A stretch of DNA of 64,000 bases from Candidatus Omnitrophota bacterium (GTDB lineage Bacteria; Omnitrophota; Gorgyraeia; Gygaellales; Profunditerraquicolaceae). The stretch spans positions 3,118 through 67,117 of the forward strand of contig JBAZTA010000001.1 in NCBI GenBank assembly GCA_041662125.1, given 5' to 3'. The notes beneath the pieces are model-generated. The model was not told the origin of the DNA, made no database searches, and was given only the letters and a program-made list of their open reading frames with translations. Below are positions 37,352 through 62,347 of this stretch, piece by piece. Numbering within the stretch: the first letter of the stretch is position 1; the number at the start of each line of letters is the position of its first letter. Position numbers and translations under genes: made by a program.

Positions 37352-37429
37352 AAGACCGGGTCTTTCCAATATTTAAGTCCTACAACTTAAGACCCGGTCT
37401 TATCAAGTGTTCGCCCAAGACCCGGTCTT
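37352..37429. repeat. REP/BIME-like cluster: 3 copies of AAGACC(C/G)GGTCTT
   Basis: Copies at 37352-37364, 37389-37401, 37417-37429; between acetyltransferase start and glmM stop. Confidence 0.8.
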
Positions 37430-38796
37430 TATACTCCTAATTCCTGTTTGATCACTGAAGCTAAAGAATGGGCGATGGAATCGATTTCTGCCTTATCCTT
37501 GCCTTCTACCATGACGCGAGCCAAGGTTTCAGTACCCGAATATCGTAAAAGTATCCTGCCATTATCTTTAAGCTGCGCCAGACTGTGTTTTAAAGCGTCT
37601 CGGATCACAGGAACCTCTTCAAATGGTTTCTTTTCCTTAACTTTGATATTTACTAATATCTGCGGGTATTTTTTCATACAAGAGGATAACGCGCTAAGTT
37701 TCCTTCCTGTTTGCTGCATAACTTTCAAAATCTCCAAAGAGACTATCAGCGCATCACCTGAAGTTGACTGTTGCAGGAAAATAATATGGCCTGCCTGCTC
37801 GCCACCAAAAATCAGGTTGTTTTTCAGTAGAGCCTCAGTGACATTCCTATCTCCAACGTCAGTGCGAATAAGTTTTCCTCCTGCCTTCAGAAGTGCTTCT
37901 TCCAAGCCGAAATTACTCATGACTGTCGCCACAATGCTTTTCATAGGCAGCTTATTTTCTTTAATAAGTTGAGTGCCGACTATTGCCATAATAAAATCAC
38001 CGTCAAGGATATTGCCCAGTTCATCCGACAGGATCACCCGGTCTCCATCTCCATCATAAGAAAAACCGATATCCGCCTTATTCTTAAGTACTGCTTTTGC
38101 CATATTCTCAGGGTGAAGAGCTCCGCAGTTTAAATTGATATTTTTACCGTTTGGCTGGTCGTTTAAAACAAATACTTTCGCGCCTAATTCTTTAAATAAC
38201 TGTACCGCAATGCTATAGAGAGCGCCATGAGCGCAATCAACGACAATTTTGAGCTCGCTTAAGTCCAAATTGGATGCTTTTGATTTCAGGAAATCAATGT
38301 AAAGCCTTTCTCCATCATGCGCGTGAGTTACCAACCCTGATTCATCAACAGATAATTTGTCGGAATCGATAAAGCTGCCACTCACTAATTCTTCCATCAT
38401 CTTTTCTTGCGTATCAGAAAGTTTATACCCGGAACTTGAGAAAAACTTAATGCCGTTTTCTTCCGCGCGATTGTGAGACGCGGAAATCATAATCCCCATA
38501 TCAGCTTTCAATCTTCTGGTTAAAAATGACAGGCCCGGAGTCGAGACAATACCCACTAAAGACACATCTACTCCGCAAGCAGAAATACCGCCTACTAAAA
38601 GTTTTTCGATTACTTCACAACTAAGCCTGGTATCCTTACCGATAATGATCTTATAATGCTTCTGTCCTATTTTTCTTTGATTATGCAACAATTGCGCAGC
38701 TGCCTTACCAATTTTTAATATCATTTCATCGGTTAAAGGATATTCTCCGGGTGTTCCGCGGATCCCGTCAGTTCCGAAAAGTTTGTTTTTGCTCAT
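37429..38796 (-). CDS. glmM: Phosphoglucosamine mutase
   Basis: 455 aa; LFGTDGIRG N-terminus; active-site SASHNRAEENG. Confidence 0.85.
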   Translation of the reverse strand: MSKNKLFGTDGIRGTPGEYPLTDEMILKIGKAAAQLLHNQRKIGQKHYKIIIGKDTRLSCEVIEKLLVGGISACGVDVSLVGIVSTPGLSFLTRRLKADMGIMISASHNRAEENGIKFFSSSGYKLSDTQEKMMEELVSGSFIDSDKLSVDESGLVTHAHDGERLYIDFLKSKASNLDLSELKIVVDCAHGALYSIAVQLFKELGAKVFVLNDQPNGKNINLNCGALHPENMAKAVLKNKADIGFSYDGDGDRVILSDELGNILDGDFIMAIVGTQLIKENKLPMKSIVATVMSNFGLEEALLKAGGKLIRTDVGDRNVTEALLKNNLIFGGEQAGHIIFLQQSTSGDALIVSLEILKVMQQTGRKLSALSSCMKKYPQILVNIKVKEKKPFEEVPVIRDALKHSLAQLKDNGRILLRYSGTETLARVMVEGKDKAEIDSIAHSLASVIKQELGV

Positions 38797-38845
38797 TTTT
38801 TATTCCTATTAGTAATAAACAGTTATTTTCTATTTAATCAGATTT

Positions 38846-38894
38846 AAGACCCGGTCTTTTCTACAATTAAAATCACCAGCCAAGACCGGGTCTT
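38846..38894. repeat. REP-like 49-nt hairpin element (2 inverted 13-mers, 23-nt loop)
   Basis: Copies at 38846-38858 and 38882-38894; near-identical, in reverse orientation, to 43486-43534. Confidence 0.8.
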
Positions 38895-38914
38895 GTTAGT
38901 CGGCAATGACAAAT

Positions 38915-39703
38915 TTATAAATACCGGTAAATATATTCAGGGATATGATATTGAACATTGGTCAAGACATACCCTAAGATCTTAACGCGTGCCTGGCGTA
39001 ATATATCTTCACCATGCTTAATGATCCCTCGCTGGGTACGATTAGCTTGGATCACCATGACAACTCCGTCAGTCTGAGCCCCAATTAATCCTGCATCAGT
39101 TACCGGGATAATAGGAGGTGAATCAAAAATAACGTAATCAAACTTTTCTTTAAGTGTAGTTATTAAATTCTTAAATTTTATTGAATTAAGCAGCTCTGCC
39201 GGATTATGAGGCACTTTACCAGAAGGTAAAAACATAAGATTATCAATACCGATATTAACTACAACCTCATCGACATTTACTCCGTTACTGATCAACTCAG
39301 ATAAACCGGCTTCAGACTTAATACCTATATATTTACTTGTCTTACCCCTGCGCAAATCAGCATCAACCAGAAGTATGCGTTTCTTATTTAAATCATGCGC
39401 CATCGAAACAGCCAAGTTTATTGAAGTAACGCTTTTGCCTTCACTATGAATTGAACTGGTAATGGTGATCGCTTTGATAGGTTTTTCCGAGTTAATCGCT
39501 TGTATATTGGTCCTTAAAGTACGGTACTGTTCCGCAACAGTTGAATGAGGGTCGTAGAATGATACAATGCGCGGATCATATTTTGCATCGACCGTCTTTT
39601 GAGCAACAAACTGATAGGTCGTTTCTAATTTTTCATCTAACTTATCTATACGTGATAGCCTTTCTTCAGCAGCTTTTTTTAATGCATCAGTAATCTTTCC
39701 CAT
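38915..39703 (-). CDS. Polysaccharide co-polymerase tyrosine autokinase, cytoplasmic ATPase domain (BY-kinase, CpsD/CapB-like)
   Basis: 262 aa; Walker-A-like SEGKSVTS; C-terminal Tyr cluster YHIPEYIYRYL. Confidence 0.7.
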   Translation of the reverse strand: MGKITDALKKAAEERLSRIDKLDEKLETTYQFVAQKTVDAKYDPRIVSFYDPHSTVAEQYRTLRTNIQAINSEKPIKAITITSSIHSEGKSVTSINLAVSMAHDLNKKRILLVDADLRRGKTSKYIGIKSEAGLSELISNGVNVDEVVVNIGIDNLMFLPSGKVPHNPAELLNSIKFKNLITTLKEKFDYVIFDSPPIIPVTDAGLIGAQTDGVVMVIQANRTQRGIIKHGEDILRQARVKILGYVLTNVQYHIPEYIYRYL

Positions 39704-39712
39704 TTTTTCTCC

Positions 39713-40705
39713 TTAAAGCATGATTGAATGCTGCAAACACGTTAAATAATTATAGCAGCTATTACAGCAGAGCTGTTCTTGGCCTTTGGTTCCGCGATCC
39801 CATTTTAAACCGCAATCATTATAATGCATACAGTGAGTACAACAATGAGTCTTCTTATTGCCAATAACGAATGTACCATTAATATCATTTTGCTCTTGCA
39901 CTAATTCTCTATCTTTTATAACCTCTATTACCATACCTTCATTAATTATCTTTGTATCAGAAATATAGCCTGAAAGTAACGCGCTGTCGCAAATAAGGTT
40001 TATGATCCTGGGAACCCCTCGAGAATGACGGTAAATTAGATTAAGCGCCTGCGGCTGGAATATTTCAGCGTGTCCGTTTGAGCTCACCAATGCAAGCCTA
40101 TGCAGAACATAAGCAGTTGTTTCCTCTTGAGTTAAGGGAAAAATATGGTAGTGCAAAGCAATCCGCTGCCTGAATTGTTCAAGTTTTTTATGCCCTAATT
40201 TCTTTTTTAGCTCCGGCTGGCCAATAAGTATTATCTGCAAAAGCTTATCCGTCTCGGTTTCAAGATTAGAAAGCATCCTGACTTCTTCCAAGACATTGTG
40301 GCTTAAGTTCTGCGCTTCATCAATAATTAAAACAACATTGGTATTTTCAGCAAGCTGTTTGATTAAATAGTCGTTGAGCAAAGAAAGCATTTTCTGCTTA
40401 TTCCCGGCTTTATGCTCGATTTCAAGCTCTTCTAAGATTTGAGCTATAAGATCACGAGCTGTCAGATGAGTATTGGTGATCAAGGCGACCTTAGTATTAC
40501 TATCAAGTTTATTTAATAACGTCCGGGTGACAGTCGTTTTTCCCGCGCCAATCTCTCCGGTAATGACCACAAACCCTTTTCTTTCCTCAATAGCATAGAT
40601 CAGGCTATTCAGTGCCTCCGTATGCTTAGAGCTGGGGAAAAAGAATTTTGGGTTCGGTGTTACATTAAATGGTTTATCTTTAAAGCAAAAGAATTTTTCG
40701 TACAT
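39713..40705 (-). CDS. ExeA-like AAA ATPase (type found in exosortase/PEP-CTERM EPS loci) with a 45-aa Cys-rich C-terminal extension
   Basis: 330 aa; Walker A GEIGAGKTT; Walker B IIDEAQ; 9 Cys in C-terminal tail. Confidence 0.6.
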   Translation of the reverse strand: MYEKFFCFKDKPFNVTPNPKFFFPSSKHTEALNSLIYAIEERKGFVVITGEIGAGKTTVTRTLLNKLDSNTKVALITNTHLTARDLIAQILEELEIEHKAGNKQKMLSLLNDYLIKQLAENTNVVLIIDEAQNLSHNVLEEVRMLSNLETETDKLLQIILIGQPELKKKLGHKKLEQFRQRIALHYHIFPLTQEETTAYVLHRLALVSSNGHAEIFQPQALNLIYRHSRGVPRIINLICDSALLSGYISDTKIINEGMVIEVIKDRELVQEQNDINGTFVIGNKKTHCCTHCMHYNDCGLKWDRGTKGQEQLCCNSCYNYLTCLQHSIML

Positions 40706-40706
40706 A

Positions 40707-42002
40707 TTATTGTTTAAGTAGTGAATAAAGCATTGAGAGCACCATCACAAATATACCGCCTGCTAACCCTGAAATAATTAACAAACGTTGCCTATGTTTT
40801 TCATTATCTATCTCTTCACGAGTCGTTATGCGAGAAATTGCCCCTAAAATAGGAAATTTCAGATGATTTTTAGCATCATCAATATCAAGGAAAGATTGAT
40901 CCATGAACTCACGAGCGAATACTAATCCTACCCCTGCAGCACATCCAACAAAAAGACCCACGAATACAAAGAGTATCTTTGGTTTCTTCGGCTTTAAAGG
41001 CAACCTCGGAGGATCAATAATGGTATAGCGCGTGCCTTGTTTTGAAGCTTCAAGCCGCTGTGTGATCTTAGCTGTTTCTAACCTCTGAAGCAGCATATTG
41101 TAAATTTGCTCATTAACCCTGATATCTTGAGCCTTGGCTGAATCTAATTTATCCATCAAAAACAACTTATATATTGTTCCATTGACATCGCTTGTGCTAT
41201 TATCAACAGCTACAGGAGAAGCAGAATTTTCCGTATTAAGCTTTTCTAATTCAACCGCAAGAGTTTCACGCATCGCTTTTGTAATTGGCTTCTCAGAATC
41301 AGCAATTTTATATTCCCCGGATTCAAGCGCTTTTTTAGCCTGGTCAACTTTATACTTTAATTCTTTGACCAGCGGATGCTCTACTGTTGAATTAATAGTC
41401 AATACCCTTAACTGCTCCTCTAAATCAGCGATTTCTGATTCTTTAACTTTTCTTTTGTAAACCTGTAATTGCTCTTTAAGGAAATTAATCGCGACATCAG
41501 TTTCTTTGGTTTGAGAACGCATGCTTTCTTCAACAAACAGATCAGTTAATGTCTTAACCACTTTATAAGCAGTTTGAGGATCTTTATCTCCATACGATAT
41601 CCTGATAATGCTTTGAGCGCTCAGTTCTACCCTAATTTTCTTTGCCAGATCCTTAATAAAATCTTCAAACTGAGATTGGCTCTCTACATTTTTCGCTAAT
41701 TCAAGTTTCTTCACCAAGTCCGTGAGATTATTCCAGCCAAGCAAGCGTTCCCGTATCGTCTGCAGCCTTTGAGAAAAACTGGCGGAAACCGCTAAATCCT
41801 GGATCAGTGGATTAATAGTCCTTTGCTCTTCAACTAAAATTGCGGTTGATGCTTCATAAGTCGCCGGAAGGACAAAATATGCAACCACCCCTAAAACTAA
41901 TCCTATATACAGAGGCGTCAAAACAAACCATTTTCTGCGAAAGAAAAGTTTCAGGTATGCTAATGGATTGTTATATTTTTGTAAGGGAGTTTCATTTTCC
42001 AT
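40707..42002 (-). CDS. Polysaccharide chain-length determinant (Wzz/GumC-type co-polymerase; transmembrane/periplasmic domain partner of the BY-kinase)
   Basis: 431 aa; two TM segments flanking coiled-coil periplasmic region. Confidence 0.65.
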   Translation of the reverse strand: MENETPLQKYNNPLAYLKLFFRRKWFVLTPLYIGLVLGVVAYFVLPATYEASTAILVEEQRTINPLIQDLAVSASFSQRLQTIRERLLGWNNLTDLVKKLELAKNVESQSQFEDFIKDLAKKIRVELSAQSIIRISYGDKDPQTAYKVVKTLTDLFVEESMRSQTKETDVAINFLKEQLQVYKRKVKESEIADLEEQLRVLTINSTVEHPLVKELKYKVDQAKKALESGEYKIADSEKPITKAMRETLAVELEKLNTENSASPVAVDNSTSDVNGTIYKLFLMDKLDSAKAQDIRVNEQIYNMLLQRLETAKITQRLEASKQGTRYTIIDPPRLPLKPKKPKILFVFVGLFVGCAAGVGLVFAREFMDQSFLDIDDAKNHLKFPILGAISRITTREEIDNEKHRQRLLIISGLAGGIFVMVLSMLYSLLKQ

Positions 42003-42019
42003 ATCAATTTCCTTTAATT

Positions 42020-42889
42020 TTATTGTGCTCTTGGTCTTGTAGGAGTCCTGACTGCTGTTACTGCTCCCGTACCGGTAGTTGCCGCGGCTGCGCCACCTGC
42101 TGCTGCTGTTAAAGGTTCAGTTACCGGATTAATTATCCTGGTAACTTTTGCCATGATTGTTGATGGAACGTATAATACATCCCCGGGATGCATATCAATA
42201 TTCTGTTTAAGATTCCCCCCATAAAGAAGGGAATATAAATTCACGTATTTAGTTTTGGGGTTACCTTTCTTATCAGGAGTGATCAAACGGCATTTTCTGG
42301 TTGCAGATGCTAATGTAGGAAGCCCTGCCTCAACGATTGCTTCTCGTACCGGCATACTTTCAGAACGCATATAATATTTACCTGGCCTGCCAACCTCTCC
42401 TAATACATAGTAAACCTTACTACGGTATTCTAAAATAGTAACGTTAACTTCAGGATTAACCGCGTATGTTGATATAAGCTGTCTTATTTTGGCTTCTAAT
42501 TCTTTTTTAGTCAAGCCCGTTACATCAACATCCCCGACATATTCATACTGAATCTTGCCTTCTAAATTCACGGGGAATACACCGCTAAATTCCTGGTGGC
42601 GCTGAACCGTAATTTCAATAATATCATCAGGGCCAAGGGTATAAATCACTTCTTCGTTAGTTTTCACTGCTTTAGCCTCTGTAGCTGCCGGTACTAGTTG
42701 TTCTTGAACTTGAGCTTGGACAACTTCTGACGCTTGTTGAGCAGGCGCCTGCACTGTTGCCTCTGTAACCACAACAGTTTCTTGCGATTTCTTCACAGTC
42801 TCTTGAGCGCTCACCCAGGATATATGTAAAAAAGATATAATTAACACCAAACAAAAGCTAAATTTCTTTACCATTTCCATCCTCCACAT
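42020..42889 (-). CDS. Polysaccharide export outer-membrane/periplasmic protein (Wza family)
   Basis: Signal peptide; Poly_export-type PGDVLYVP motif. Confidence 0.7.
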   Translation of the reverse strand: MWRMEMVKKFSFCLVLIISFLHISWVSAQETVKKSQETVVVTEATVQAPAQQASEVVQAQVQEQLVPAATEAKAVKTNEEVIYTLGPDDIIEITVQRHQEFSGVFPVNLEGKIQYEYVGDVDVTGLTKKELEAKIRQLISTYAVNPEVNVTILEYRSKVYYVLGEVGRPGKYYMRSESMPVREAIVEAGLPTLASATRKCRLITPDKKGNPKTKYVNLYSLLYGGNLKQNIDMHPGDVLYVPSTIMAKVTRIINPVTEPLTAAAGGAAAATTGTGAVTAVRTPTRPRAQ

Positions 42890-43073
42890 AAAAAATTATA
42901 GTCTCTTTAAAGTTTTTAAGCTTCTTAAAATCCAGCTTATCGTAAATCCTCCAGCCGCGCCAATCTCGCTTAGGCTGTTGGACTTTACCGGATTTCTCCC
43001 AACGAACGATCGTTTTAGGAGTCACTCCGATCCTGTCTGCAACATCTGTTATAGTCATTTTGCTGTTCCCCAC
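42858..43073 (-). CDS. Small helix-turn-helix DNA-binding protein (MerR/excisionase-like HTH)
   Basis: 71 aa; ITDVADRIGVTPKTIVRWEKSGK. Confidence 0.55.
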   Translation of the reverse strand: MGNSKMTITDVADRIGVTPKTIVRWEKSGKVQQPKRDWRGWRIYDKLDFKKLKNFKETIIFYVEDGNGKEI

Positions 43074-43106
43074 CTCAGCCCCCTTTTAGTAATTAGGTAA
43101 TTTTAT

Positions 43107-43142
43107 TGTCCTACTATGTCCTGGTATGTCTATGTCTGTCCA
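43107..43142 (-). promoter_or_regulatory. Direct GACATA/GGACA repeats in promoter region of HTH-wza operon
   Basis: Minus strand reads GGACAGACATAGACATACCAGGACATAGTAGGACA, 35-70 bp upstream of HTH start. Confidence 0.35.
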
Positions 43143-43448
43143 ATAAGTACGTATATATAATATATAAGCATTATACATGCCAAGTCAAGAGCTTAATTAA
43201 ATAATTAATAACAAGTACTGTAAGTGGCTGAAGATAATACGCTTGCGAATGCTTTATTGTCCCGGAAAATTAGAAGAAAAAAGAGGGAAAATTGAAATGT
43301 TGCGGAAATGAAACTTTTAGCTTTAGTTTAGATTTTGTTATTGCTTCAGAGCACTAATTGTAAGTCACTGCAGGATATAGCTTTATACCATGTGTTGTTT
43401 TATGTAAACAGGTGTTTGTAAAGATTACAAAAAGTATCGCTATATCTT

Positions 43449-43534
43449 AAGACCGGGTCTTTTTAATAATAAAATACAACCATTCAAGACCCGGTCTTGG
43501 CTGGTGATTTTAATTATAGAAAAGACCGGGTCTT
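43449..43534. repeat. REP/BIME-like cluster: 3 alternating 13-mers
   Basis: 43449-43461, 43486-43498, 43522-43534. Confidence 0.8.
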
Positions 43535-43548
43535 GGTCTTGTAGAATC

Positions 43549-43872
43549 TTATCTCTGCTGTTGCTGAGGCGGCTGTTGCCCCTGAGAAGGCATATTCATC
43601 CTTTGGGAAGAATGAAATCTCATCGGATCATTCTGGAAATTACGCATCATATCATTGTTGCGCGGGCACATTTTAGACATTAAAAACAGATTATTCGCGA
43701 TCAAAAAGAAACTTAAAACAATGATAAAGATCCCAATAGCCAAACCGATCTGTTTCATAGTCTTCTCTTCCTGATTGGCAAAATAACACACAATATAACC
43801 TAATGCTAATGCCACCAATAATACCGCTTCATTCGCCAAACTCATCTCGATACCAGGCATTCCACCCATCAT
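43549..43872 (-). CDS. Small membrane protein with Gln-rich C-terminus
   Basis: 107 aa; two hydrophobic helices; C-terminal QGQQPPQQQQR. Confidence 0.4.
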   Translation of the reverse strand: MMGGMPGIEMSLANEAVLLVALALGYIVCYFANQEEKTMKQIGLAIGIFIIVLSFFLIANNLFLMSKMCPRNNDMMRNFQNDPMRFHSSQRMNMPSQGQQPPQQQQR

Positions 43873-43910
43873 AAGTCCCTCCTCATTTAGGTTAATTACC
43901 AGATCATTTA

Positions 43911-44093
43911 CTATTTAATACAATCAATCCTCCAGCAACACGCCAGTTGCTCGCAATAACTCTTCATACTGGCAAAACAGTCATAATTACCTTCTTTTCG
44001 CTGTATCATCCGGATCAACTCTTTTTTGGGATATTTCCATGGATCCCGCATGCCTAACCCTTTTGCTTTTTTCTGAACCTCAGAAAGACGCAT
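43911..44093 (-). CDS. Small Cys-rich protein (5 Cys in last 22 aa)
   Basis: 60 aa; RBS-like GGGAGG upstream; CFASMKSYCEQLACCWRIDC. Confidence 0.4.
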   Translation of the reverse strand: MRLSEVQKKAKGLGMRDPWKYPKKELIRMIQRKEGNYDCFASMKSYCEQLACCWRIDCIK

Positions 44094-44138
44094 ACTTACC
44101 TCCCTTTACCTATATATGTAACGACCGACATTTTAAAA

Positions 44139-44205
44139 GATTGCTTCGCCCCTTCGGGGCTCGCAATGACACGAATTGAAACGCTCGCAATGACACAAGA
44201 GCGAT
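44139..44205 (-). other. Second copy of the same leader motif (CGCAATGACAC duplicated) upstream of small Cys-rich ORF
   Basis: GATTGCTTCGCCCCTTCGGGGCTCGCAATGACACgaattgaaacgCTCGCAATGACAC. Confidence 0.5.
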
Positions 44206-44210
44206 ATCTT

Positions 44211-44260
44211 AAGACCGGGTCTTGGCTGTAACTAAAATTTAGCTGTTAAGACCCGGTCTT
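44211..44260. repeat. REP-like 50-nt hairpin element
   Basis: 44211-44223 and 44248-44260, 24-nt spacer. Confidence 0.8.
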
Positions 44261-44282
44261 ATCAAAGCAACGCTCTTTAACA

Positions 44283-44996
44283 CTAAATATAGAAAGCCCT
44301 TCTTAAATCATCCCTGCGGCGTTCCGCAGCCAAAACAAAATCACTTATCTTTGCCTGATCGTAAAGCGCGAAGCTGTTATTAAGAGAAAACGACGCTAAT
44401 TGAATCCCTTTACTCACCTTGCCATCCTGGGAAGCAGTTTCCATGATCGCAAACGTAGCCAATTCCAAGCTATGGCTTAACGAGATTTCTTTAGTATATA
44501 ACGTGTTCAATAAATAGGTTGCTAGTGGCGTGATCCCTATCGCCATAAACCCCAGCAAAGTCCATCGGTGCGGCGCAAAATTGCGTTCGCTATGCAAAGT
44601 GAATATCTCCGGAGAGTCAATAAAACGAGCGTTACCGATATCCTTACGATATCCAACCAAAACAATATGCAAGGTCGGACGGTCTTCAAAGGCCACCTCA
44701 TCAAACCATTCATTATATTTCTTTATCGCGCAGTCACGGCAGGTGATCAACAATTCATCAACGCTTAAAAGCCGGTAATTCGGAATTTGGTGCAATTCAT
44801 AATAAATTACATCAATAATACTTGACCCCAGCCCTCCGTCACCGGCGATAGCCAACCCGCAAAAATCGCTGAGTTCAAAAACCTTCTTTACCGTGTCATT
44901 AACGGTCGTTGGACCACGGGGGTCACCGCTGGTGACCCTGCTGTCAGCAGCAATCGCTATACCGTCTTTCGCAATAATACCAATAGCCAGAGTCAT
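44283..44996 (-). CDS. Proteasome-family Ntn hydrolase homolog (Anbu/HslV-like) with Thr immediately after Met
   Basis: 237 aa; MTLAIGIIAKDGIAIAADSRVTSG ... GLAIAGDGG. Confidence 0.6.
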   Translation of the reverse strand: MTLAIGIIAKDGIAIAADSRVTSGDPRGPTTVNDTVKKVFELSDFCGLAIAGDGGLGSSIIDVIYYELHQIPNYRLLSVDELLITCRDCAIKKYNEWFDEVAFEDRPTLHIVLVGYRKDIGNARFIDSPEIFTLHSERNFAPHRWTLLGFMAIGITPLATYLLNTLYTKEISLSHSLELATFAIMETASQDGKVSKGIQLASFSLNNSFALYDQAKISDFVLAAERRRDDLRRAFYI

Positions 44997-45391
44997 TATA
45001 CTTTGTAGACCTTGTCTTTGGTCCTTACCCGGGAATCAACCAAAAGCCCGATCTCATCGCCCTTCTTAGCTTTTTGAATAGAAACCCTATCGATCTGCAT
45101 TGAGATTATTTTCTGCTTAAAATCTGTTGTAAACCCTTTAATCCGTATCGTGTCTCCTACTAAAACAGGCGATTTTAATTTTATCACCGCTGCCCTGACT
45201 TGCGTAAAATAATGCGTGATCTCACCCAAAAGGAACTCTTTTTTCTTAGGTTTCTTAGATGACTTTGCAGGAGGGGAAGAAGGTTTTTTCTTTGCAACAG
45301 GTTTTTTCGCAACAACCTTCTTGAGCGGCTTTTTCTTAATGATTTTCTTCTTTGAAGCTGAAGCTGATCTTTTTTTCTTCTTCAAAACCAT
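44996..45391 (-). CDS. Lys-rich (histone H1-like tail) protein with C-terminal beta-barrel domain
   Basis: 131 aa; N-terminal 50 aa >50% Lys; stop overlaps start of proteasome homolog. Confidence 0.45.
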   Translation of the reverse strand: MVLKKKKRSASASKKKIIKKKPLKKVVAKKPVAKKKPSSPPAKSSKKPKKKEFLLGEITHYFTQVRAAVIKLKSPVLVGDTIRIKGFTTDFKQKIISMQIDRVSIQKAKKGDEIGLLVDSRVRTKDKVYKV

Positions 45392-47275: not shown

Positions 47276-47286
47276 TTTTTCATATT

Positions 47287-48849: not shown

Positions 48850-48865
48850 AGGGAATTTATTGGCC

Positions 48866-51172: not shown

Positions 51173-51192
51173 GAGAACCTCCAGTATAATTT

Positions 51193-51309
51193 AAGACCCG
51201 GTCTTATCTATAATTTAGAACTACAATTCAAGACCGGGTCTTGCACACAACTACGAACCAAGACCGGGTCTTGAGATATCTTTCTTACTTCTTGAAAAGA
51301 CCCGGTCTT
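51193..51309. repeat. REP/BIME-like cluster: two 50-nt hairpin elements (4 copies of the 13-mer)
   Basis: 51193-51205, 51230-51242, 51260-51272, 51297-51309. Confidence 0.8.
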
Positions 51310-52054: not shown

Positions 52055-52128
52055 TGCCCCTGGCTGGAATCGAACCAGCCACACGCAGTTTAGGAAACTG
52101 CTGCTCTATCCTTATGAGCTACAGGGGC
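52055..52128 (-). tRNA. tRNA-Arg (anticodon CCT)
   Basis: Hand-folded cloverleaf: acceptor GCCCCTG/CAGGGGC, D-stem GCTC/GAGC, anticodon stem GCAGT/ACTGC with loop TTCCTAA, T-arm GCTGG-TTCGATT-CCAGC, discriminator A, CCA not encoded. Confidence 0.85.
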
Positions 52129-56316: not shown

Positions 56317-56373
56317 TGCTTTTAAAACCCTCCTTTTTCGGATTAATCGTTATGTTCGTCAGTGTCAACGAAA

Positions 56374-57675: not shown

Positions 57676-57747
57676 AATTTATTAGTTTTATCTTAAAATA
57701 CCTCGATTGTCAATAAAATTCTACCTTACACCTAGCCTTGACATACC

Positions 57748-57816
57748 AAGACCGGGACTTATCAATGATAAAACACCACAATTCAAGTCCCGGTCTTATT
57801 ATCAGGCCCGGGACTT
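57748..57816. repeat. REP-like hairpin element, variant with compensatory substitutions, plus a partial third copy
   Basis: AAGACCGGGaCTT 57748-57760 and AAGtCCCGGTCTT 57785-57797; internal spacer matches 62247-62270. Confidence 0.7.
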
Positions 57817-57829
57817 ACACTCCGCGCAA

Positions 57830-58657
57830 TTACCCCATCTTCTTTAACTCTTCATCCTTAATAGTAAAACTATACTGCGGGGAAGGAAATGTCCCTTCCG
57901 TAACCTCTTTTTTATATTCTTGGACTGCTTTTGTTATTACAGCAGAAACATCAGCATATTTTTTTACGAATTTAGGCGTGTAGCGCTCAAAAAGGCCCAA
58001 CAGGTCATAGGTGACCAAAACCTGTCCGTCACAGAGTACCCCCGCGCCGATACTAATTGTGGGGATCTTTATTTTTTCCGTTATCATACCGGCAATTTTA
58101 TCTGGCACACATTCAAGCACGATCGCAAAACACCCCAGATCAGCAAGCGCGCATGCTTGTTGGATGAGTTTCTTGGCGCTTTCAGCATCCTTTCCCTGAA
58201 CTTTAAATCCGCCTAATTTATCCGCAGTCTGAGGCGTTAAACCGATATGCCCCATAACCGCAATACCGGATTTGATGAGCGTCCCGGTAACCTCTAAACA
58301 GCGGTCAAACCACTCCAGCTTCACCGCGTCAGCGCCTGCTTCATCAATAAACCGGCGCGCATTTGTTAGCGCATTTTCCGGTTTGAGCTGATACGATTCA
58401 AAAGGCATATCCCCTACAACCAATGCCTGTTTTACCGCGCGGCTGACTGCCTTAGTATGATGTAACATCTCAACCATCCCTACCTGTGTCGTCGAATCAA
58501 GGCCCAAAACAACATTTGCCAGGGAATCTCCTACTAAAATGATATCTATCCCTGCCCTGTCAATTAAGGAAGCCAAAGGATAATCATATGCGGTAAGCAT
58601 GGTAATTTTGCGTTTTCCCTTAAGCGATACAATATCCTGAACACTTATTTTCTTCAT
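57830..58657 (-). CDS. panB: 3-methyl-2-oxobutanoate hydroxymethyltransferase
   Basis: 275 aa; KITMLTAYDYP...ILVGDSLANVVLG. Confidence 0.85.
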   Translation of the reverse strand: MKKISVQDIVSLKGKRKITMLTAYDYPLASLIDRAGIDIILVGDSLANVVLGLDSTTQVGMVEMLHHTKAVSRAVKQALVVGDMPFESYQLKPENALTNARRFIDEAGADAVKLEWFDRCLEVTGTLIKSGIAVMGHIGLTPQTADKLGGFKVQGKDAESAKKLIQQACALADLGCFAIVLECVPDKIAGMITEKIKIPTISIGAGVLCDGQVLVTYDLLGLFERYTPKFVKKYADVSAVITKAVQEYKKEVTEGTFPSPQYSFTIKDEELKKMG

Positions 58658-58659
58658 TT

Positions 58660-59901
58660 TTACTGTGTAAATTGCGCTACTAACAATGCGATAGAAAGCC
58701 CGACCATCGCTACAACCGTCCCGATAGCAAAAAAATTATAAACTTTTGAGTTGGTATATTTACCCATCAAACGTTTATTATTGACCAAAAGAAGCATAAA
58801 GATCAAAACAAACGGCAGGAGCAAACCATTGGTTGCCTGAGAGATCAACATGATCGGGATGAGTTTAACACCCGGCAATAAGATCACCGCCGCGCCGATA
58901 ATAATAATAGCGGTATACAGAGAATAAAATTGCGGCGCTTCGCGGAACCGGCGGTTAACCCCTACTTCCCATCCCATACCTTCACAAACCGAGTACGCCG
59001 TCGATAAAGGAAGGATACAGGCAGAGAAGATCGACGCATTCAAGAGCCCAAACGCAAATAAATAAAAACAATGCTGGCCCGCGAAAGGTTTAAGAGCCAG
59101 TGCCGCATCTTTAGCTGTTTCTATCCGGATACCGTGTCTGAATAAGGTATTAGCGCAAACAATAACAATAAAAACAGCGATTATATTAACCATAAATGCT
59201 CCCACCACAACATCAAGCTTACTGTATTTATAGTTTTTAAGCTTAATATCCTTTTCCACCACTGAGGCCTGCTGGTAAAACTGCATCCACGGGGCAATGG
59301 TCGTTCCAATGACCCCCATGAGCATAAATAAATACGCTTTGTCAAAACGGAATTCCGGCTTAATGGAACTGGCAAAAACCTCATTCCAGTCTGGTTTTGA
59401 CAAAAATCCGGAAACCACATAACAAACATAAAAAAGACAGGCGAACAAAAACACCTTTTCCACTGATTTATAGGTCCCCTTGACGATCAGCCACCAGACA
59501 AATAAGGCGGATCCGCTTACCATAAGATATTTATTGATACCCAACAGTTCTGCGCTGGCGGCAATACCTGCGAATTCGGAGATCGTATTAAAAATATTCG
59601 ATAATATAAGGACAACCATCGCGTAAAAGGTGACCTTGACGCCAAACTCCTCCCTGATCAGGTCCGCTAAGCCCTTTCCCGTGACTACCGCCATCCTGCT
59701 GCACATTTCCTGAATAATTACCAGCGCGATGATGATCGGGATAAAAGACCAGATAAGTGAATACCCGAAATGCGCGCCGGCTACAGAATACGTCGTAATT
59801 CCGCCGGCGTCGTTATCGACATTAGCCGTGATCATTCCCGGGCCCATAATGGAAAGGAAGATCAGGATCTCAGCCCAGAATTTTTTTATTTTCTTGATCA
59901 T
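58660..59901 (-). CDS. NRAMP (SLC11)-family divalent cation transporter homolog lacking canonical DPGN and MPH metal-site motifs
   Basis: 413 aa; ~11 TM; GPGMITANVDNDAGG...FGYSLIW aligns to NRAMP TM1 region. Confidence 0.55.
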   Translation of the reverse strand: MIKKIKKFWAEILIFLSIMGPGMITANVDNDAGGITTYSVAGAHFGYSLIWSFIPIIIALVIIQEMCSRMAVVTGKGLADLIREEFGVKVTFYAMVVLILSNIFNTISEFAGIAASAELLGINKYLMVSGSALFVWWLIVKGTYKSVEKVFLFACLFYVCYVVSGFLSKPDWNEVFASSIKPEFRFDKAYLFMLMGVIGTTIAPWMQFYQQASVVEKDIKLKNYKYSKLDVVVGAFMVNIIAVFIVIVCANTLFRHGIRIETAKDAALALKPFAGQHCFYLFAFGLLNASIFSACILPLSTAYSVCEGMGWEVGVNRRFREAPQFYSLYTAIIIIGAAVILLPGVKLIPIMLISQATNGLLLPFVLIFMLLLVNNKRLMGKYTNSKVYNFFAIGTVVAMVGLSIALLVAQFTQ

Positions 59902-61253
59902 AAGGTCGTTTTGGTTTTGATTTTCTTAAGCCTGCGCCAGGCGATCGCGATAACCTGGCTTAAAATATCATCAACGGTGATTATCCCCTGCAAAACGTTA
60001 TTTTCATCAACCACAGGAATAGCATTATACTTATATTTTTCCATACGATAGGCGACTTCTTTAACGCTGCTGTCTAAATGCACACAATACGTTTTGGGGA
60101 AAGCGGCATTCTGTATCGGTTCCTGCGGTTGGGCTAAAAGAAGCCTTCTAAAACTAGTTGATCCGATCAAATGGTTAACCTCATCAACAATATAAACAAA
60201 CTGCGCTGGTTCAACTTTAAAGGTGCGTTCCTTAATTTGCTTTAAAACGGTTTCAATAACAGTATCTTTGGGAAACGATATATATTCCGCGACCATCAAA
60301 CCTCCCGCGGAATCACTGGAATACCCTAATAACTGCGATAATTTCTTGGCTTGCTTACTTTCCATCAGGCTTAAAAACCGTTCTGAGGTATCTTTCGGTA
60401 ATTGCTCCAGAATATCGGTGGCTTCATCAGAAGGGATACTGTTTAAAATATCAACGATTTCTTTCGGGTCTACTTCTTCGATCAATGATTTCTGCGCTTT
60501 CGCGTCGATATTCATGAATATTTTCGCTTTATTTTTCAGGTCTAATGACTTAAAAAGAACACTCTGATGCTGCATATCAAGGTCAAGGAATATCTCGCCG
60601 AGATCAGCGGCAGGAATATTATTGAATTGTTTCTGCGGAACATTTATCTTAATGGTCATACTGACCGGATTAACCGACAAAGGCTGGATATTTTTCCAGG
60701 TGATCAAATGCTCATTTTCCAAATATGGGGCTTTATCATTAATAAGGCGCACCAGGAAATCCACAACCTTCTCGAACCCTAAACGGCGCAGCAATCCCCG
60801 CAAACTGATATCAACGTGAGCGATCATTAAAGACTGGTCAACTTCCAAAAGATGGATATCGTTGATCCGGATAACTTTATGATTATAGGTATCAACGACC
60901 TGCTGGTCAAGGATATCACGGCGAAGCGTCAATGCTTCCTTATTATTGTGCTTTTCCTTAAAACTGAGCTTTGTTTTATCGGTTTTTAAGGTCACCTCTT
61001 TTCCATCGATTTCCTGAATATCCGCCCAATCAACTACCGCGTATCGACGGCTAAAAAAACCGGTGCGGATGATCATCTGCGCCGATTGCGGATAGACTTC
61101 GCTGGGTTTTACCATAACATCATATAATTCACCGACGAGCTCTCCCTTACTATCGATAACCGGCCTATCCATAAGCGCAGAGAAATAAATAAACATCTTC
61201 TTGGCATTTTCATTGACTAAATCTTGTCTTTCCTGCTTCCCGAACATAGCCAA
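59898..61253 (-). CDS. Soluble MgtE-type cytoplasmic module (PRC-barrel-like N-terminus, MgtE_N domain, CBS pair) without a transmembrane domain
   Basis: 451 aa; MgtE_N signature ...SDSAGGLMVAEYISF; tandem CBS; 4-bp overlap with downstream NRAMP gene. Confidence 0.55.
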   Translation of the reverse strand: MAMFGKQERQDLVNENAKKMFIYFSALMDRPVIDSKGELVGELYDVMVKPSEVYPQSAQMIIRTGFFSRRYAVVDWADIQEIDGKEVTLKTDKTKLSFKEKHNNKEALTLRRDILDQQVVDTYNHKVIRINDIHLLEVDQSLMIAHVDISLRGLLRRLGFEKVVDFLVRLINDKAPYLENEHLITWKNIQPLSVNPVSMTIKINVPQKQFNNIPAADLGEIFLDLDMQHQSVLFKSLDLKNKAKIFMNIDAKAQKSLIEEVDPKEIVDILNSIPSDEATDILEQLPKDTSERFLSLMESKQAKKLSQLLGYSSDSAGGLMVAEYISFPKDTVIETVLKQIKERTFKVEPAQFVYIVDEVNHLIGSTSFRRLLLAQPQEPIQNAAFPKTYCVHLDSSVKEVAYRMEKYKYNAIPVVDENNVLQGIITVDDILSQVIAIAWRRLKKIKTKTTL

Positions 61254-61261
61254 CCTTTTTC

Positions 61262-62218
61262 TTATTGAAAGCCATCCTGCGCTTCGATGACCTTTATCGT
61301 AACACCGGGAAACTCTTTTGCCAGCGCTTCCCCTTTTTGTCTTCCTAAAACAAATATCGCTGTTGACAAAGCATCGGCAGTCAAACCATCATCAGCAATA
61401 ACCGTTACCGATATAACCTTTGAATCCGCTGGGTATCCGGTCTTTGGATCCATGATATGCGCGTAACGCAGGTTATTGTTAGTAAAATACTGTTCGTAAT
61501 CGCCGGAGGTAGATACTGCTTTATTCTTGAGCGCCATTTCCGCGACAAAACTTTGATGCCGCGGGTCCCGTACGGCGACATGCCAGGGCTCACCGAATTT
61601 ATCACCTAAACAATAGATCTGCCCGCCGGCATTGATCAAACAATTTTTTATGCCTGCGTCTTTTAATGCCTGCACGGCGCAATCAACCGCGTATCCTTTG
61701 GCAATAGCTCCGGCGTCTAATTTCATCCCGGAAAGCTTGAATTTTACCACAGTATCATGCAAATTAAAAATGATTTTTTCAAATCCGACACAACTCAAAA
61801 CTTTTTCTATTTCTTCTTTACCGGGAACCCGGTAATTTTTATCGGTAAAACCCCATACATCCATAAGAGGGCCGATCGTAATATCAAAGGCGCCTGCGCT
61901 TTTTTCCCAAAAGAAACGCGCTTTATCAAGCAGATACAAAGTTTGCAGGCTTACCCGCCATTGCCCACGCTGGTTTAACTCAAAAATATCACTCCCTTTT
62001 TTATATTTACTTAACAAATTCTCGATCTTCTTGATCTCATCAAAGACAATGGCAGGCGCCCGCTTTTCAGGAGAAACAACCTCAACAAACGTCCCCATCA
62101 TGACGCGCCGATCACGGTAAAGCTCATGGCTGCGGCAGCCGGGAAGAAAGTTGGAAATCAAAAGCAAAACGGAAAAAGACAGGAATAAAGAACTATTGCG
62201 TCTAGTAATTCTGTTCAT
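61262..62218 (-). CDS. apbE: FAD:protein FMN transferase (ApbE family lipoprotein); real start MNRITRR
   Basis: Signal peptide with LPGC lipobox; C-terminal DDGLTADALSTAIFVLG ApbE motif. Confidence 0.75.
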   Translation of the reverse strand: MNRITRRNSSLFLSFSVLLLISNFLPGCRSHELYRDRRVMMGTFVEVVSPEKRAPAIVFDEIKKIENLLSKYKKGSDIFELNQRGQWRVSLQTLYLLDKARFFWEKSAGAFDITIGPLMDVWGFTDKNYRVPGKEEIEKVLSCVGFEKIIFNLHDTVVKFKLSGMKLDAGAIAKGYAVDCAVQALKDAGIKNCLINAGGQIYCLGDKFGEPWHVAVRDPRHQSFVAEMALKNKAVSTSGDYEQYFTNNNLRYAHIMDPKTGYPADSKVISVTVIADDGLTADALSTAIFVLGRQKGEALAKEFPGVTIKVIEAQDGFQ

Positions 62219-62233
62219 GAACTCTAGCTTCTT

Positions 62234-62347
62234 AAGACCGGGTCTTATCAATGATAAAACGCAACCTTTCAAGACCCGGTCTTATTGCTCGCTTTAAAAG
62301 ACCCGGTCTTGAATTGTAAACCTAAGTTATAGATAAGACCGGGTCTT
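62234..62347. repeat. REP/BIME-like cluster: two 50-nt hairpin elements (4 copies of the 13-mer)
   Basis: 62234-62246, 62271-62283, 62298-62310, 62335-62347. Confidence 0.8.

What the first reader, a model, noticed from the sequence alone, without database searches (positions are those of the whole stretch)
37352..62347. Genome-specific REP/BIME-like hairpin element family built from the palindrome AAGACC(C/G)GGTCTT
Twenty copies of a 13-bp palindrome occur at 7 intergenic sites. They are always arranged as inverted pairs separated by 23-24 nt, giving ~50-nt stem-loop elements with 1-2 elements per site. All sit between the stop of one gene and the start of the next. At 57748-57797 the two arms carry reciprocal substitutions (GGGaCTT / AAGtCCC) that preserve arm-arm complementarity, which argues for selection on the inter-arm hairpin. 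None occurs in the first 37 kb (the glycan locus), which could reflect operon compaction or a separate origin.
Basis: seen in the sequence. Interest (0 to 1): 0.55.

Follow-up and report, generated by a model that had tools for sequence, protein, structure and literature searches.

The report
REPIN repeats with a RAYT partner
The paired AAGACC(N)GGTCTT palindromes are real: they are a previously undescribed family of small mobile hairpin repeats (REP doublets, "REPINs") in Candidatus Omnitrophota, and their dedicated tyrosine transposase (RAYT) gene is bracketed by the same palindrome in every related genome checked, so this is a new example of a well-known kind of element.

Summary
The window holds 18 exact and 2 single-mismatch copies of AAGACCNGGTCTT at seven intergenic sites (0 expected). 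They form ten inverted doublets with 23-24 nt spacers.

The family is not genome-specific. The same doublets occur in 7 Omnitrophota-type MAGs and in more than 120 metagenome contigs, with lineage-specific spacers of 20-27 nt. The centre bases of the two arms are complementary in 142 of 154 unique doublets. Three stem pairs show compensatory changes, which supports the long inter-arm hairpin.

A Y1/HUH transposase of the REP-associated type (RAYT) is flanked on both sides by these arms in all 7 orthologues examined (54-100% identity). One of them is in the same sequencing run as the window's contig and very probably in the same MAG. The RAYT sits at a conserved syntenic locus.

No target-site duplications were found. 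48-nt copies occur in frame inside genes such as purL. Elements are gained or lost between relatives.

Verdict: a REPIN-RAYT system, a new member of a known kind. Mobilisation by the RAYT and any effect on mRNA are inferred, not shown.

The parts
37352..37401 (+). REPIN doublet: G-centred arm, 24-nt spacer, C-centred arm. The strand given is that of the family's spacer consensus (atCTaTAATtaAAAACTACaatTC), which is antisense to the flanking genes.
   Evidence: RNA fold shows the 13-bp stem. The orthologous copy in L052 is nearly identical.
37417..37429 (.). Solo third arm (C-centred), 15 nt after the doublet. Its last base overlaps the stop codon of glmM (37429-38796, minus strand).
38846..38894 (+). 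REPIN doublet, C..G, 23-nt spacer. It lies between a ParA-like/AAA_31 gene and glmM.
   Evidence: Fold -25.6 kcal/mol, z -4.3. 98% reverse-complement match to 43485-43534.
43449..43498 (+). REPIN doublet, G..C, 24-nt spacer. The orthologous copy in L047/L138 carries T..A at the centre.
43486..43534 (-). Second REPIN, C..G, 23-nt spacer, in the opposite orientation. It shares the middle arm (43486-43498) with the previous doublet.
44211..44260 (+). REPIN doublet, G..C, 24-nt spacer. It is absent at the corresponding place in relatives L047/L138. It is preceded 14 nt upstream by a copy of a different repeat (TCGCAATGACAC).
51193..51242 (+). REPIN doublet, C..G, 24-nt spacer. Left half of a BIME-like head-to-head pair.
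   Evidence: (I4)
51260..51309 (-). REPIN doublet, G..C, 24-nt spacer. Right half of the pair, in inverted orientation, 17 nt from the first.
57748..57797 (+). REPIN doublet with the compensated arm variant GGGACTT / AAGTCCC. It lies between panB and a class II aminoacyl-tRNA synthetase gene.
   Evidence: The same variant recurs in L014, L028, L073, L088, L102 and next to the RAYT in L152.
57804..57816 (.). Degenerate third arm AGGCCCGGGACTT, 6 nt after the doublet.
62234..62283 (+). REPIN doublet, G..C, 24-nt spacer. It lies between the panE/apbA-like and apbE genes.
62298..62347 (-). REPIN doublet, C..G, 24-nt spacer, in inverted orientation, 14 nt from the previous one. 91% reverse-complement match to 51186-51242.
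   Evidence: (I1)

Best explanation
These elements are REPINs: inverted doublets of a short palindromic REP whose core is AAGACC-N-GGTCTT, often extended to TCAAGACCNGGTCTTGA. They form the non-autonomous half of a REPIN-RAYT system in Candidatus Omnitrophota. The partner is a single-copy, vertically inherited Y1/HUH tyrosine transposase of the REP-associated type (RAYT), whose own gene is bracketed by the same REP.

Inferred mechanism, by analogy with the E. coli and Pseudomonas systems:
- On single-stranded DNA, each REP or the whole doublet folds into a hairpin.
- The RAYT recognises the hairpin, nicks it and rejoins it through its HUH/Tyr active site. The roughly 50-nt doublet is thereby moved or copied without a target-site duplication.
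- Copies survive where they do little harm: just after stop codons or between cistrons, or, when the length is a multiple of three (48 nt), in variable loops of proteins.
- Once transcribed, each doublet forms a stable 13-bp stem-loop in the mRNA (about -25 kcal/mol). This could act as a 3' stabiliser or processing site, but that role is not shown.

Shown: the repeat family, its doublet architecture, maintenance of arm-arm pairing, the lack of target-site duplications, presence/absence differences between relatives, in-frame copies in genes, and the consistent RAYT association.

Inferred: that the RAYT mobilises the doublets, that the intermediate is single-stranded DNA, and any effect on RNA.
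For: Repeat family and distribution
- 20 arms at 7 sites against 0 expected.
None occur in viral contigs.
- Of 392 exact arms, 380 have a neighbouring arm within 60 nt.

Arm-arm pairing
- Centre bases are complementary in 142 of 154 unique doublets. In the unbiased metagenome set the figure is 94 of 100, against 0.26 expected (p about 1e-47).
- The inter-arm helix is paired in 99.2% of cells. Three pairs show double changes, and the centre pair takes all four Watson-Crick forms (GC 18, UA 14, CG 11, AU 2). The intra-arm mini-hairpin has no compensations and 19 broken cells.
- The orthologous copies W 43449 (G..C) and L138 529 (T..A) differ by a double compensatory change.

RAYT association
- L013 has a 198-aa Y1_Tnp ORF (PF01797, E 1.6e-13) with arm arrays on both sides.
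- Its homologues P0002, P0003, P0005, P0006, P0010 and P0015 (54-75% identity) each have an arm 33-34 nt before the ATG and 14-15 nt after the stop, or whole doublets there.
- In L165 the two flanking arms carry a reciprocal change (GAGATCG.. / ..CGATCTT).
- The best NCBIfam match is REP_Tyr_transpos (50-65 bits) against 18 bits for IS200.
- A profile of these proteins hits ISDra2 TnpA (1.3e-8) and E. coli TnpA-REP 4ER8 (1.3e-7). The HUH histidines and the Tyr are invariant.
- The RAYT locus is syntenic in P0003, P0006, P0010, P0014 and P0015: BNR/sortilin-like, RAYT, thioredoxin, CbiA/DRTGG, pta, ackA, panD, def.
- P0002 is MFA6217665.1, labelled [Candidatus Omnitrophota bacterium]. The window's proteins are MFA6216056.1 and MFA6216074.1 with the same label. 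Both P0002 and the window's contig are found in run SRR18595301.

Other behaviour
- No target-site duplication of 3 nt or more around 121 isolated doublets.
- In-frame copies in ORFs occur for 6 of 32 doublets of 48 nt, against 1 of 123 for all other lengths (a 46-nt copy). Two purL orthologues carry them at different positions.
- Doublets are present in one relative and absent in another at W 44211 and L140 1761.
- Flanking genes are both antisense to the spacer consensus in 30 cases and both sense in 7; 4 contexts are convergent and none divergent (p 2e-4).

Definitions of REPIN and RAYT are taken from PMC3116915, PMC3337134 and PMC5581495.
Against: - No RAYT lies in the window itself. Its presence in the same genome rests on the shared sequencing run, the same organism label and nearby accession numbers, not on a read-through assembly.
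- The RAYT scores below NCBIfam's curated cut-off for REP-associated tyrosine transposases (50-65 bits against 80).
- The arms lack the GTAG/CTAC foot typical of enterobacterial, Pseudomonas and Stenotrophomonas REPs. A GTAG occurs only inside some spacers.
- Two other RAYT-like genes in contigs that carry these doublets (L108, L116) are flanked by different, classical GTAG...CTAC REPs. A RAYT near a doublet is therefore not automatically its partner.
- The one usable filled/empty comparison in the window (44211) is imprecise, so the exact element boundaries and cleavage sites are unknown.
- The orientation bias is confounded with replication direction, and the copies are not phylogenetically independent.
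Confidence: 0.85

Rival explanations
1. Miniature inverted-repeat transposable elements (MITEs): deletion derivatives of a DDE-type insertion sequence whose 13-nt terminal inverted repeats are the arms.
For: Each element has terminal inverted repeats and is small and multicopy.
Against: No target-site duplication of 3 nt or more at any of 9 boundary offsets. No transposase other than the Y1 type recurs next to the arms in 1 Mb of loci. The only gene consistently bracketed by the arms is a Y1/HUH protein.
Confidence: 0.03
2. The arms are the ends of an autonomous IS200/IS605-type insertion sequence, and the doublets are merely its decayed ends. On this view the Y1 protein is an ordinary multicopy transposase rather than a domesticated RAYT.
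For: The protein belongs to Pfam Y1_Tnp. It is below NCBIfam's RAYT cut-off. Its best PDB match is ISDra2 TnpA.
Against: The gene occupies the same syntenic slot (BNR-like gene, RAYT, thioredoxin, pta/ackA) in at least five species-level relatives. It occurs once in the 1 Mb sampled. It scores 50-65 bits on the RAYT model against 18 on the IS200 model. JGI annotates the homologues as RayT. The doublets outnumber the gene by orders of magnitude.
Confidence: 0.05
3. Host-evolved RNA elements, not mobile DNA: intercistronic stem-loops that terminate transcription or stabilise or process mRNA.
For: All window copies lie after stop codons. Folds are stable (-25 to -59 kcal/mol, z -2.6 to -9.0). There is a strong orientation bias relative to transcription and none lie in divergent promoter regions. 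One copy sits in a 23S-5S spacer.
Against: No U-tract follows either arm, and the 23-24 nt loop is unlike an intrinsic terminator. The genome has canonical terminators elsewhere, for example 49015-48986. Identical 13-mers across species with unrelated spacers, in-frame copies in ORFs, gain and loss between relatives, and the RAYT linkage all point to a mobile origin. A secondary RNA role is not excluded.
Confidence: 0.05
4. Operator or nucleoid-protein sites (a 6-1-6 palindrome bound by a dimer), or DNA-uptake sequences arranged as inverted pairs.
For: Each arm is a 13-bp palindrome. The arm's own symmetry is kept by a symmetric double change in a distant RAYT lineage (TCAAGGCCTGGCCTTGA).
Against: A symmetric dimer site gives no reason for the centre bases of two arms to be complementary (94 of 100). 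It also gives no reason for variants that break the arm palindrome yet keep arm-arm pairing. About 97% of arms are paired at fixed spacing and solo arms are rare, unlike uptake sequences. Sites occur inside ORFs in frame.
Confidence: 0.02

Closest known systems
REPIN-RAYT systems of Pseudomonas fluorescens SBW25 and E. coli (REP/BIME with TnpA-REP; RAYT groups 2 and 3)
   Same: A short palindromic REP arranged mostly as inverted doublets that form a long hairpin. The two halves evolve in concert. Copies are mostly extragenic and at 3' ends of genes, and occur in clusters of alternating orientation. A Y1/HUH gene is bracketed by the same REP and sits at a conserved chromosomal locus. There is no target-site duplication.
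   Different: - Host phylum is Omnitrophota, not Proteobacteria.
- The REP is a near-perfect 13-17-nt palindrome without the GTAG/CTAC foot.
- The doublet is only 46-53 nt.
- The REP core is unchanged across RAYT orthologues down to about 54% identity, while the spacers are lineage-specific.
- The RAYT is too divergent to pass NCBIfam's cut-off.
- 48-nt copies are fixed in frame in ORFs.
Rickettsia palindromic elements (RPEs)
   Same: Palindromic repeats that are tolerated as in-frame insertions in protein-coding genes, including housekeeping genes, as well as in intergenic DNA.
   Different: RPEs are 100-150 bp, have no known dedicated transposase and are mostly ancient and immobile. Here the elements are about 50 nt, mostly intergenic and linked to a RAYT. 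(Comparison from general knowledge, not tested here.)
IS200/IS605 insertion sequences (IS608, ISDra2)
   Same: Same enzyme superfamily (Y1 HUH; profile E 1e-8 to 5e-4 to ISDra2 and IS608 TnpA). Hairpin recognition on single-stranded DNA and no target-site duplication.
   Different: Those are autonomous, multicopy elements with imperfect subterminal hairpins and a target tetra- or pentanucleotide. Here the gene is single-copy and syntenic, and the multicopy entity is the gene-less doublet.

Membership tests
REP/REPIN-RAYT system | Short (about 15-40 nt) palindromic repeat unit able to form a hairpin | tested here: met
   The core is a 13-nt palindrome AAGACC-N-GGTCTT, extended to TCAAGACCNGGTCTTGA in most subfamilies.
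REP/REPIN-RAYT system | Many copies, overwhelmingly extragenic | tested here: met
   20 arms at 7 intergenic sites in 27 kb against 0 expected. 148 of 155 unique doublets in 1 Mb of related loci lie outside long ORFs. A whole-genome count was not possible.
REP/REPIN-RAYT system | REPs occur mainly as inverted doublets that form a hairpin (the REPIN), with the two halves kept complementary | tested here: met
   380 of 392 arms are paired. Centre bases are complementary in 142 of 154 doublets. Three stem pairs show compensatory changes and 99.2% of cells are paired.
REP/REPIN-RAYT system | A Y1/HUH transposase gene (RAYT) flanked by the same REP | tested here: met
   7 of 7 orthologues (L013, L152-L160, L164, L165) have arms on both sides. 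L152 comes from the window's own sequencing run and accession series. The gene is not inside the window.
REP/REPIN-RAYT system | RAYT is single-copy and vertically inherited (same locus in related genomes) | tested here: met
   The same neighbours (BNR/sortilin-like gene upstream; thioredoxin, CbiA/DRTGG, pta, ackA, panD, def downstream) are seen for P0003, P0006, P0010, P0014 and P0015. There is one copy in the 1 Mb sampled. Copy number per complete genome was not measured.
REP/REPIN-RAYT system | Conserved GTAG/CTAC tetranucleotide at the foot of the REP (enterobacterial, Pseudomonas and Stenotrophomonas REPs) | tested here: not met
   The arms are flanked by TC...GA, not GTAG...CTAC. GTAG appears only inside the 24- and 25-nt spacers. 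This feature belongs to particular RAYT groups and not to the class as a whole.
REP/REPIN-RAYT system | RAYT protein passes a curated RAYT model | tested here: inconclusive
   NCBIfam REP_Tyr_transpos is the best hit (E 1e-13 to 1e-18, 50-65 bits) but falls below its 80-bit cut-off. The IS200 model gives 18 bits against a cut-off of 55. The Pfam Y1_Tnp threshold is passed. The HUH histidines and Tyr are invariant.
REP/REPIN-RAYT system | RAYT binds and cleaves its REP as single-stranded DNA | not testable with these tools
   Needs purified protein and oligonucleotides.
BIME (E. coli mosaic of REPs) | Clusters of REPs in alternating orientation joined by a small set of conserved linker motifs | tested here: inconclusive
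   Alternating-orientation clusters exist (sites 3, 5, 7; L013 has a 129-nt four-arm unit repeated three times). The 14-17-nt linkers in the window are not clearly a conserved motif set.
MITE derived from a DDE transposon | Terminal inverted repeats plus a target-site duplication | tested here: not met
   No direct repeats of 3 nt or more above shuffled expectation at 9 boundary offsets in 121 isolated elements.
Intrinsic (Rho-independent) terminator | GC-rich stem with a short loop, followed by a U-tract | tested here: not met
   The loop is 23-24 nt. Flanks are GAAA or (A/G)T, with no T-run. The terminator scan picks up only the intra-arm mini-stems at site 5.
Rfam RNA families | Match to a curated covariance model | tested here: not met
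   Only a tRNA-Arg passes the gathering threshold in the window. The E-value search of 42880-44300 gives only chance miRNA-model hits with E above 0.5.

The most novel reading that the evidence does not exclude
This could be an ancient, phylum-wide REPIN-RAYT partnership in the ultra-small Omnitrophota. Its 13-17-nt recognition core would have stayed essentially frozen while the RAYT diverged to about 54% identity and the spacers turned over. Closely related cores sit next to RAYT homologues in a Patescibacteria-labelled contig. Its 48-nt variants have repeatedly been fixed in frame in essential proteins such as PurL. Together with the strong transcription-strand bias, that would point to a host-integrated replicator with a cellular role, such as mRNA 3' structure or protein loop innovation, rather than a passive parasite.
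Probability: 0.3. Interest if true: 0.6.

Novelty: new member of a known kind. Interest (0 to 1): 0.4.

Why it matters
REPIN-RAYT systems have been characterised almost entirely in Proteobacteria, and only RAYT groups 2 and 3 were reported to have highly abundant REPINs (PMC5581495).

This finding provides a clean, easily searchable example in an uncultivated phylum with small genomes. It has several useful properties:
- an unusually short and conserved REP core;
- several coexisting REP families;
- natural in-frame insertions in proteins.

It gives annotators a marker that explains assembly breaks (the Logan contig L151 ends exactly at an arm) and odd 16-residue inserts (..RPGL....DRVL..). 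It gives the REPIN field an independent lineage in which to test long-term persistence and co-evolution of RAYT and REP.

Tried and rejected
- Literature search for the 13-mers: no paper holds them. 'Omnitroph* + palindromic + repeat' returned nothing relevant.
- Rfam at the gathering and E-value thresholds: nothing.
- Viral contigs: no doublets.
- All-against-all BLAST of ORFs near the elements: no recurrent neighbouring protein. The only apparent paralogue pair (L001) looked like spurious ORFs over tRNA-like sequence, judged by eye from the translation and not checked with a tRNA scan.
This found two RAYT-like ORFs (L108, L116). They turned out to be flanked and interrupted by other, classical REPs: GTAGGGGCACGGCATGCCGTGCCCCTAC and GGCCTGATAAATCAGGCAACTAC. 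This first suggested 'no RAYT link'. The true partner was found only by listing ORFs bracketed by arms.
- Filled versus empty site comparisons to define exact ends. Only W 44211 against L138/L047 and L140 against W 29839-29905 were usable, and both are imprecise because other repeats occupy the sites.
- Target-site duplication scan: negative.
- Reading the TATAAT in the spacer as a promoter: the consensus scan gives no excess of promoter-like sites and no consistent -35 box. Dropped.
- Exact-protein look-up of glmM for strain variants: returned only the same sequence.
- PDB search with the single RAYT sequence: only spurious Rad50 hits. The profile search was needed.

Full report
**Observation.**
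AAGACCNGGTCTT occurs 18 times exactly in the window, against none in 100 dinucleotide-preserving shuffles. Two further copies with one mismatch each lie at 57748 and 57785.

The 20 arms fall at seven sites:

| Site | Coordinates | Arms |
|---|---|---|
| 1 | 37352-37429 | 3 |
| 2 | 38846-38894 | 2 |
| 3 | 43449-43534 | 3 |
| 4 | 44211-44260 | 2 |
| 5 | 51193-51309 | 4 |
| 6 | 57748-57797 | 2 |
| 7 | 62234-62347 | 4 |

- All genes in this part of the window are on the minus strand, and every site lies between a stop codon and the next start. The flanking genes are ordinary chromosomal ones: glmM, polysaccharide export genes, panB, panE, apbE, an aminoacyl-tRNA synthetase and ppdK.
- Ten arm pairs are separated by 23-24 nt. 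In each pair the centre base is G in one arm and C in the other, so the arms are genuine 13-nt inverted repeats.
- The reciprocal substitution at site 6 is as described: AAGACCGGGACTT and AAGTCCCGGTCTT are exact reverse complements, while each arm alone is no longer a palindrome.
- Minor corrections: sites 1 and 3 have three arms; junctions between adjacent doublets are 14-17 nt; and site 6 has a degenerate third arm at 57804-57816.
- No arm or degenerate doublet occurs in the first 37 kb. That region has only three intergenic gaps of 48 nt or more, against fifteen in the rest, of which seven carry elements. Operon compaction is a sufficient explanation.

**The family is not genome-specific.**
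- A scan of one genome per species found the doublet in 30 loci from 7 MAGs, all labelled Candidatus Omnitrophota or 'uncultured Planctomycetales'.
None were found in viral contigs.
- The window's own proteins are GenBank MFA6216056.1 and MFA6216074.1, 'MAG... [Candidatus Omnitrophota bacterium]', on a 646-kb contig.
- In about 1 Mb of collected loci there are 392 exact arms, of which only 12 are solo. Spacers cluster at 20, 21, 22, 24 and 27 nt.
- The arms are invariant across lineages, but the spacers fall into lineage-specific subfamilies:
  - a 24-nt type, atCTaTAATtaAAAACTACaatTC, which is the window's type;
  - a 27-nt type, GTAACttaTT..CAA..TT.C;
  - a 25-nt type;
  - a 20/22-nt type with centre bases A..T, whose spacer GAGCACAGTAATTACTGTGCTC is itself a palindrome, making the whole element a perfect palindrome of about 50 nt.
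- In most subfamilies the arm extends to TCAAGACCNGGTCTTGA.

**The inter-arm hairpin is maintained.**
- Among unique doublets the centre bases are complementary in 142 of 154. In the metagenome set, where the search pattern left both centres free, the figure is 94 of 100 against 0.26 expected.
- On a gap-free alignment of 48 distinct 24-nt-type elements, the 13-bp inter-arm helix is paired in 99.2% of cells. Three pairs show changes on both sides. The centre pair takes all four Watson-Crick forms (GC 18, UA 14, CG 11, AU 2), and positions 4/10 flip A-U to U-A.
- The alternative of two intra-arm mini-hairpins has no compensations and 19 broken cells.
- At an orthologous locus, the window's copy at 43449 (G..C) corresponds to a T..A copy in relatives L047/L138, whose flanks are about 80% identical.
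- As RNA, each doublet folds at about -25 kcal/mol with z-scores of -2.6 to -9.0. The same pairing is available to single-stranded DNA.
- One caveat applies. Copies are related by descent, so counts of cells are not counts of independent events.

**Behaviour as mobile DNA.**
- Copies of 48 nt (22-nt spacer, 16 codons) lie in frame inside long ORFs in 6 of 32 cases, against 1 of 123 for all other lengths (a 46-nt copy).
- In two purL orthologues (72% identical), the element sits at different positions. It is read as KDPVLQEDKVTCKTGSL in L009 and RPGLESNSRTNQDRVL in L021. Each is opposite a gap or variable linker in the other.
- The window's doublet at 44211 has no counterpart in L047/L138. L140 has a doublet where the window (29839-29905) has a different repeat.
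- No target-site duplication of 3 nt or more flanks 121 isolated doublets at any of nine assumed boundary offsets. This argues against a DDE-type MITE and fits Y1/HUH chemistry.
- Orientation, defined by the spacer consensus, is biased relative to the flanking genes: both antisense in 30 cases, both sense in 7. Four contexts are convergent and none divergent (p 2e-4). This bias may reflect selection at the RNA level or strand-specific insertion during replication; the two cannot be separated here.

**The RAYT.**
It found two Y1_Tnp ORFs, in L108 and L116.
- Both are flanked and even interrupted by other, classical REPs: GTAGGGGCACGGCATGCCGTGCCCCTAC and GGCCTGATAAATCAGGCAACTAC. These genomes therefore carry more than one REP system, and those two RAYTs are not the partner.
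- Listing ORFs bracketed by arms revealed the partner. L013:5142-5738(-) encodes a 198-aa Y1_Tnp protein (PF01797, E 1.6e-13, nearly the full profile).
- On one side of that gene are three tandem 129-nt four-arm units. On the other are a degenerate arm plus one unit.
- Its homologues are named 'REP element-mobilizing transposase RayT' by JGI and 'transposase [Candidatus Omnitrophota bacterium]' by NCBI.
- Every orthologue whose DNA could be fetched is bracketed by the arms:

| Protein | Identity to L013 RAYT | Locus | Flanking arms |
|---|---|---|---|
| P0002 | 75% | L152 | doublets on both sides, including the GGGACTT/AAGTCCC variant |
| P0003 | 61% | L164 | CAAGACCGGGTCTTG 33-34 nt before the ATG; CAAGACCCGGTCTTG 14-15 nt after the stop |
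| P0006 | 59% | L153-155 | same arrangement as P0003 |
| P0010 | 58% | L156-157 | same arrangement as P0003 |
| P0015 | 54% | L158-160 | same arrangement; one mismatch upstream |
| P0005 | 58% | L165 | GAGATCGGGTCTT upstream and AAGACCCGATCTT downstream, a reciprocal change that keeps the two gene-flanking arms complementary |

- The gene lies in a conserved neighbourhood in P0003, P0006, P0010, P0014 and P0015. A BNR/sortilin-like gene is upstream; thioredoxin, CbiA/DRTGG, pta, ackA, DJ-1, panD and def are downstream. This is the single-copy, vertically inherited pattern that distinguishes RAYTs from IS200 transposases (PMC5581495).
- Protein comparisons agree:
  - The best NCBIfam model is REP_Tyr_transpos (50-65 bits, below its 80-bit cut-off), against 18 bits for IS200.
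  - A profile of these proteins matches ISDra2 TnpA (E 1.3e-8), E. coli TnpA-REP 4ER8 (1.3e-7) and IS608 TnpA.
  - The HUH histidines and the tyrosine are invariant.
- P0002 is MFA6217665.1. This is 1,609 accession numbers above the window's GlmM, with the same organism label. Both P0002 and the window's contig are recovered from run SRR18595301. L151 is 100% identical to window 32482-38894 and ends exactly at an arm. I infer that the RAYT belongs to the window's genome; this is not proven.
- More distant homologues carry related cores. AAGTCCGGGTCTT lies before a Curtissbacteria-labelled RAYT (54%). TCAAGGCCTGGCCTTGA lies after a 49% homologue, a symmetric double change that keeps the arm's own palindrome. 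This is as expected if the single arm is also recognised as a small hairpin.

**Interpretation.**
The elements meet the defining features of REPINs with a cognate RAYT (PMC3116915, PMC3337134):
- a palindromic REP;
- a predominance of inverted doublets;
- concerted evolution of the two halves;
- mostly extragenic location;
- a RAYT bracketed by the same REP at a conserved locus.

They lack the GTAG/CTAC foot seen in the proteobacterial REPs, and the RAYT is too divergent for NCBIfam's cut-off. Mobilisation by the RAYT through single-stranded hairpin intermediates, and any role of the transcribed stem-loops in mRNA stability or processing, are inferences from the E. coli and Pseudomonas systems. 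They are not intrinsic terminators: there is no U-tract, the loop is 23-24 nt, and a canonical terminator exists elsewhere at 49015-48986.

**Novelty.**
No paper in the library contains the motif, and no Rfam family matches. The kind of element is well known, but this family, its host phylum and some of its properties appear undescribed. Those properties are the very short and conserved core, lineage-specific spacers, coexistence with other REP families and in-frame copies in proteins. I rate it a new member of a known kind, of moderate interest.

Noticed in passing
window 32868-32914 (inside ORF 31834-33240, minus strand): A second, unrelated palindromic doublet, AAAAAATAGGGACAGTCCCCAAAAAGCGGGGACAGTCCCTATTTTTT, lies in frame inside an AMP-dependent ligase-like gene. 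It is read as ..NRDCPRFLGTVPIF.. just before the YTSGTTGKPKG motif. The same GGGACAGTCCC doublets occur six times in L021, twice inside purL ('GTVP...GDSP'). In-frame REP-like insertions therefore seem common in these genomes.
   Followed up: partly
window 44137-44172, 44185-44196, and 29840-29888 (reverse complement): A third repeat family: AGATTGCTTCG-[variable GC-rich stem, often with a TTCG loop]-CTCGCAATGACAC. The inner stem varies with compensatory changes between copies in the window, L010, L014, L021, L026, L027, L047 and L088. In five copies an AAGACC arm follows 13-14 nt downstream. There is no Rfam match.
   Followed up: partly
L108 2349-3029(-) and L116 390-929(+): Two other RAYT-like genes sit in contigs that also carry AAGACC doublets. 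Each is flanked and interrupted in frame by its own classical REP: GTAGGGGCACGGCATGCCGTGCCCCTAC, giving repeated 'GARHAVPL'; and GGCCTGATAAATCAGGCAACTAC. Several REP-RAYT systems coexist.
   Followed up: partly
L108 3991-4036 (also L077 7335-7380): An AAGACC doublet (A..T type, 20-nt spacer) appears to lie in the spacer between the 23S and 5S rRNA genes, so it would be transcribed within the rRNA operon. The rRNA identity was judged by eye from the sequence and was not checked with Rfam.
   Followed up: no
L161 (Curtissbacteria-labelled RAYT P0021) and L163 (P0050): RAYT homologues at 54% and 49% identity, outside the syntenic Omnitrophota locus, carry related cores. AAGTCCGGGTCTT lies before the gene in L161, and TCAAGGCCTGGCCTTGA after it in L163. 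This hints at co-evolution of RAYT and REP, or at transfer between Omnitrophota and Patescibacteria.
   Followed up: partly
window 42858-43073(-) and 43911-44093(-): Two small unlisted ORFs occupy the long 'gaps' next to sites 3 and 4. One is a 71-aa protein that looks like a MerR/excisionase-type helix-turn-helix. The other is a 60-aa Cys-rich protein. Both were judged by eye and not searched.
   Followed up: no
L151 (Logan SRR18595301 contig, identical to window 32482-38894): The short-read contig ends exactly at the first base of the arm at window 38894. The RAYT contig L152 begins and ends in the same repeat. These doublets break short-read assemblies.
   Followed up: yes
window 1-37000 versus 37000-64000: G+C is somewhat lower in the glycan locus (0.34-0.41) than downstream (0.38-0.47), with one tRNA-Arg(CCT) at 52055-52128(-). 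GC skew is negative throughout, consistent with all genes lying on the minus strand.
   Followed up: no
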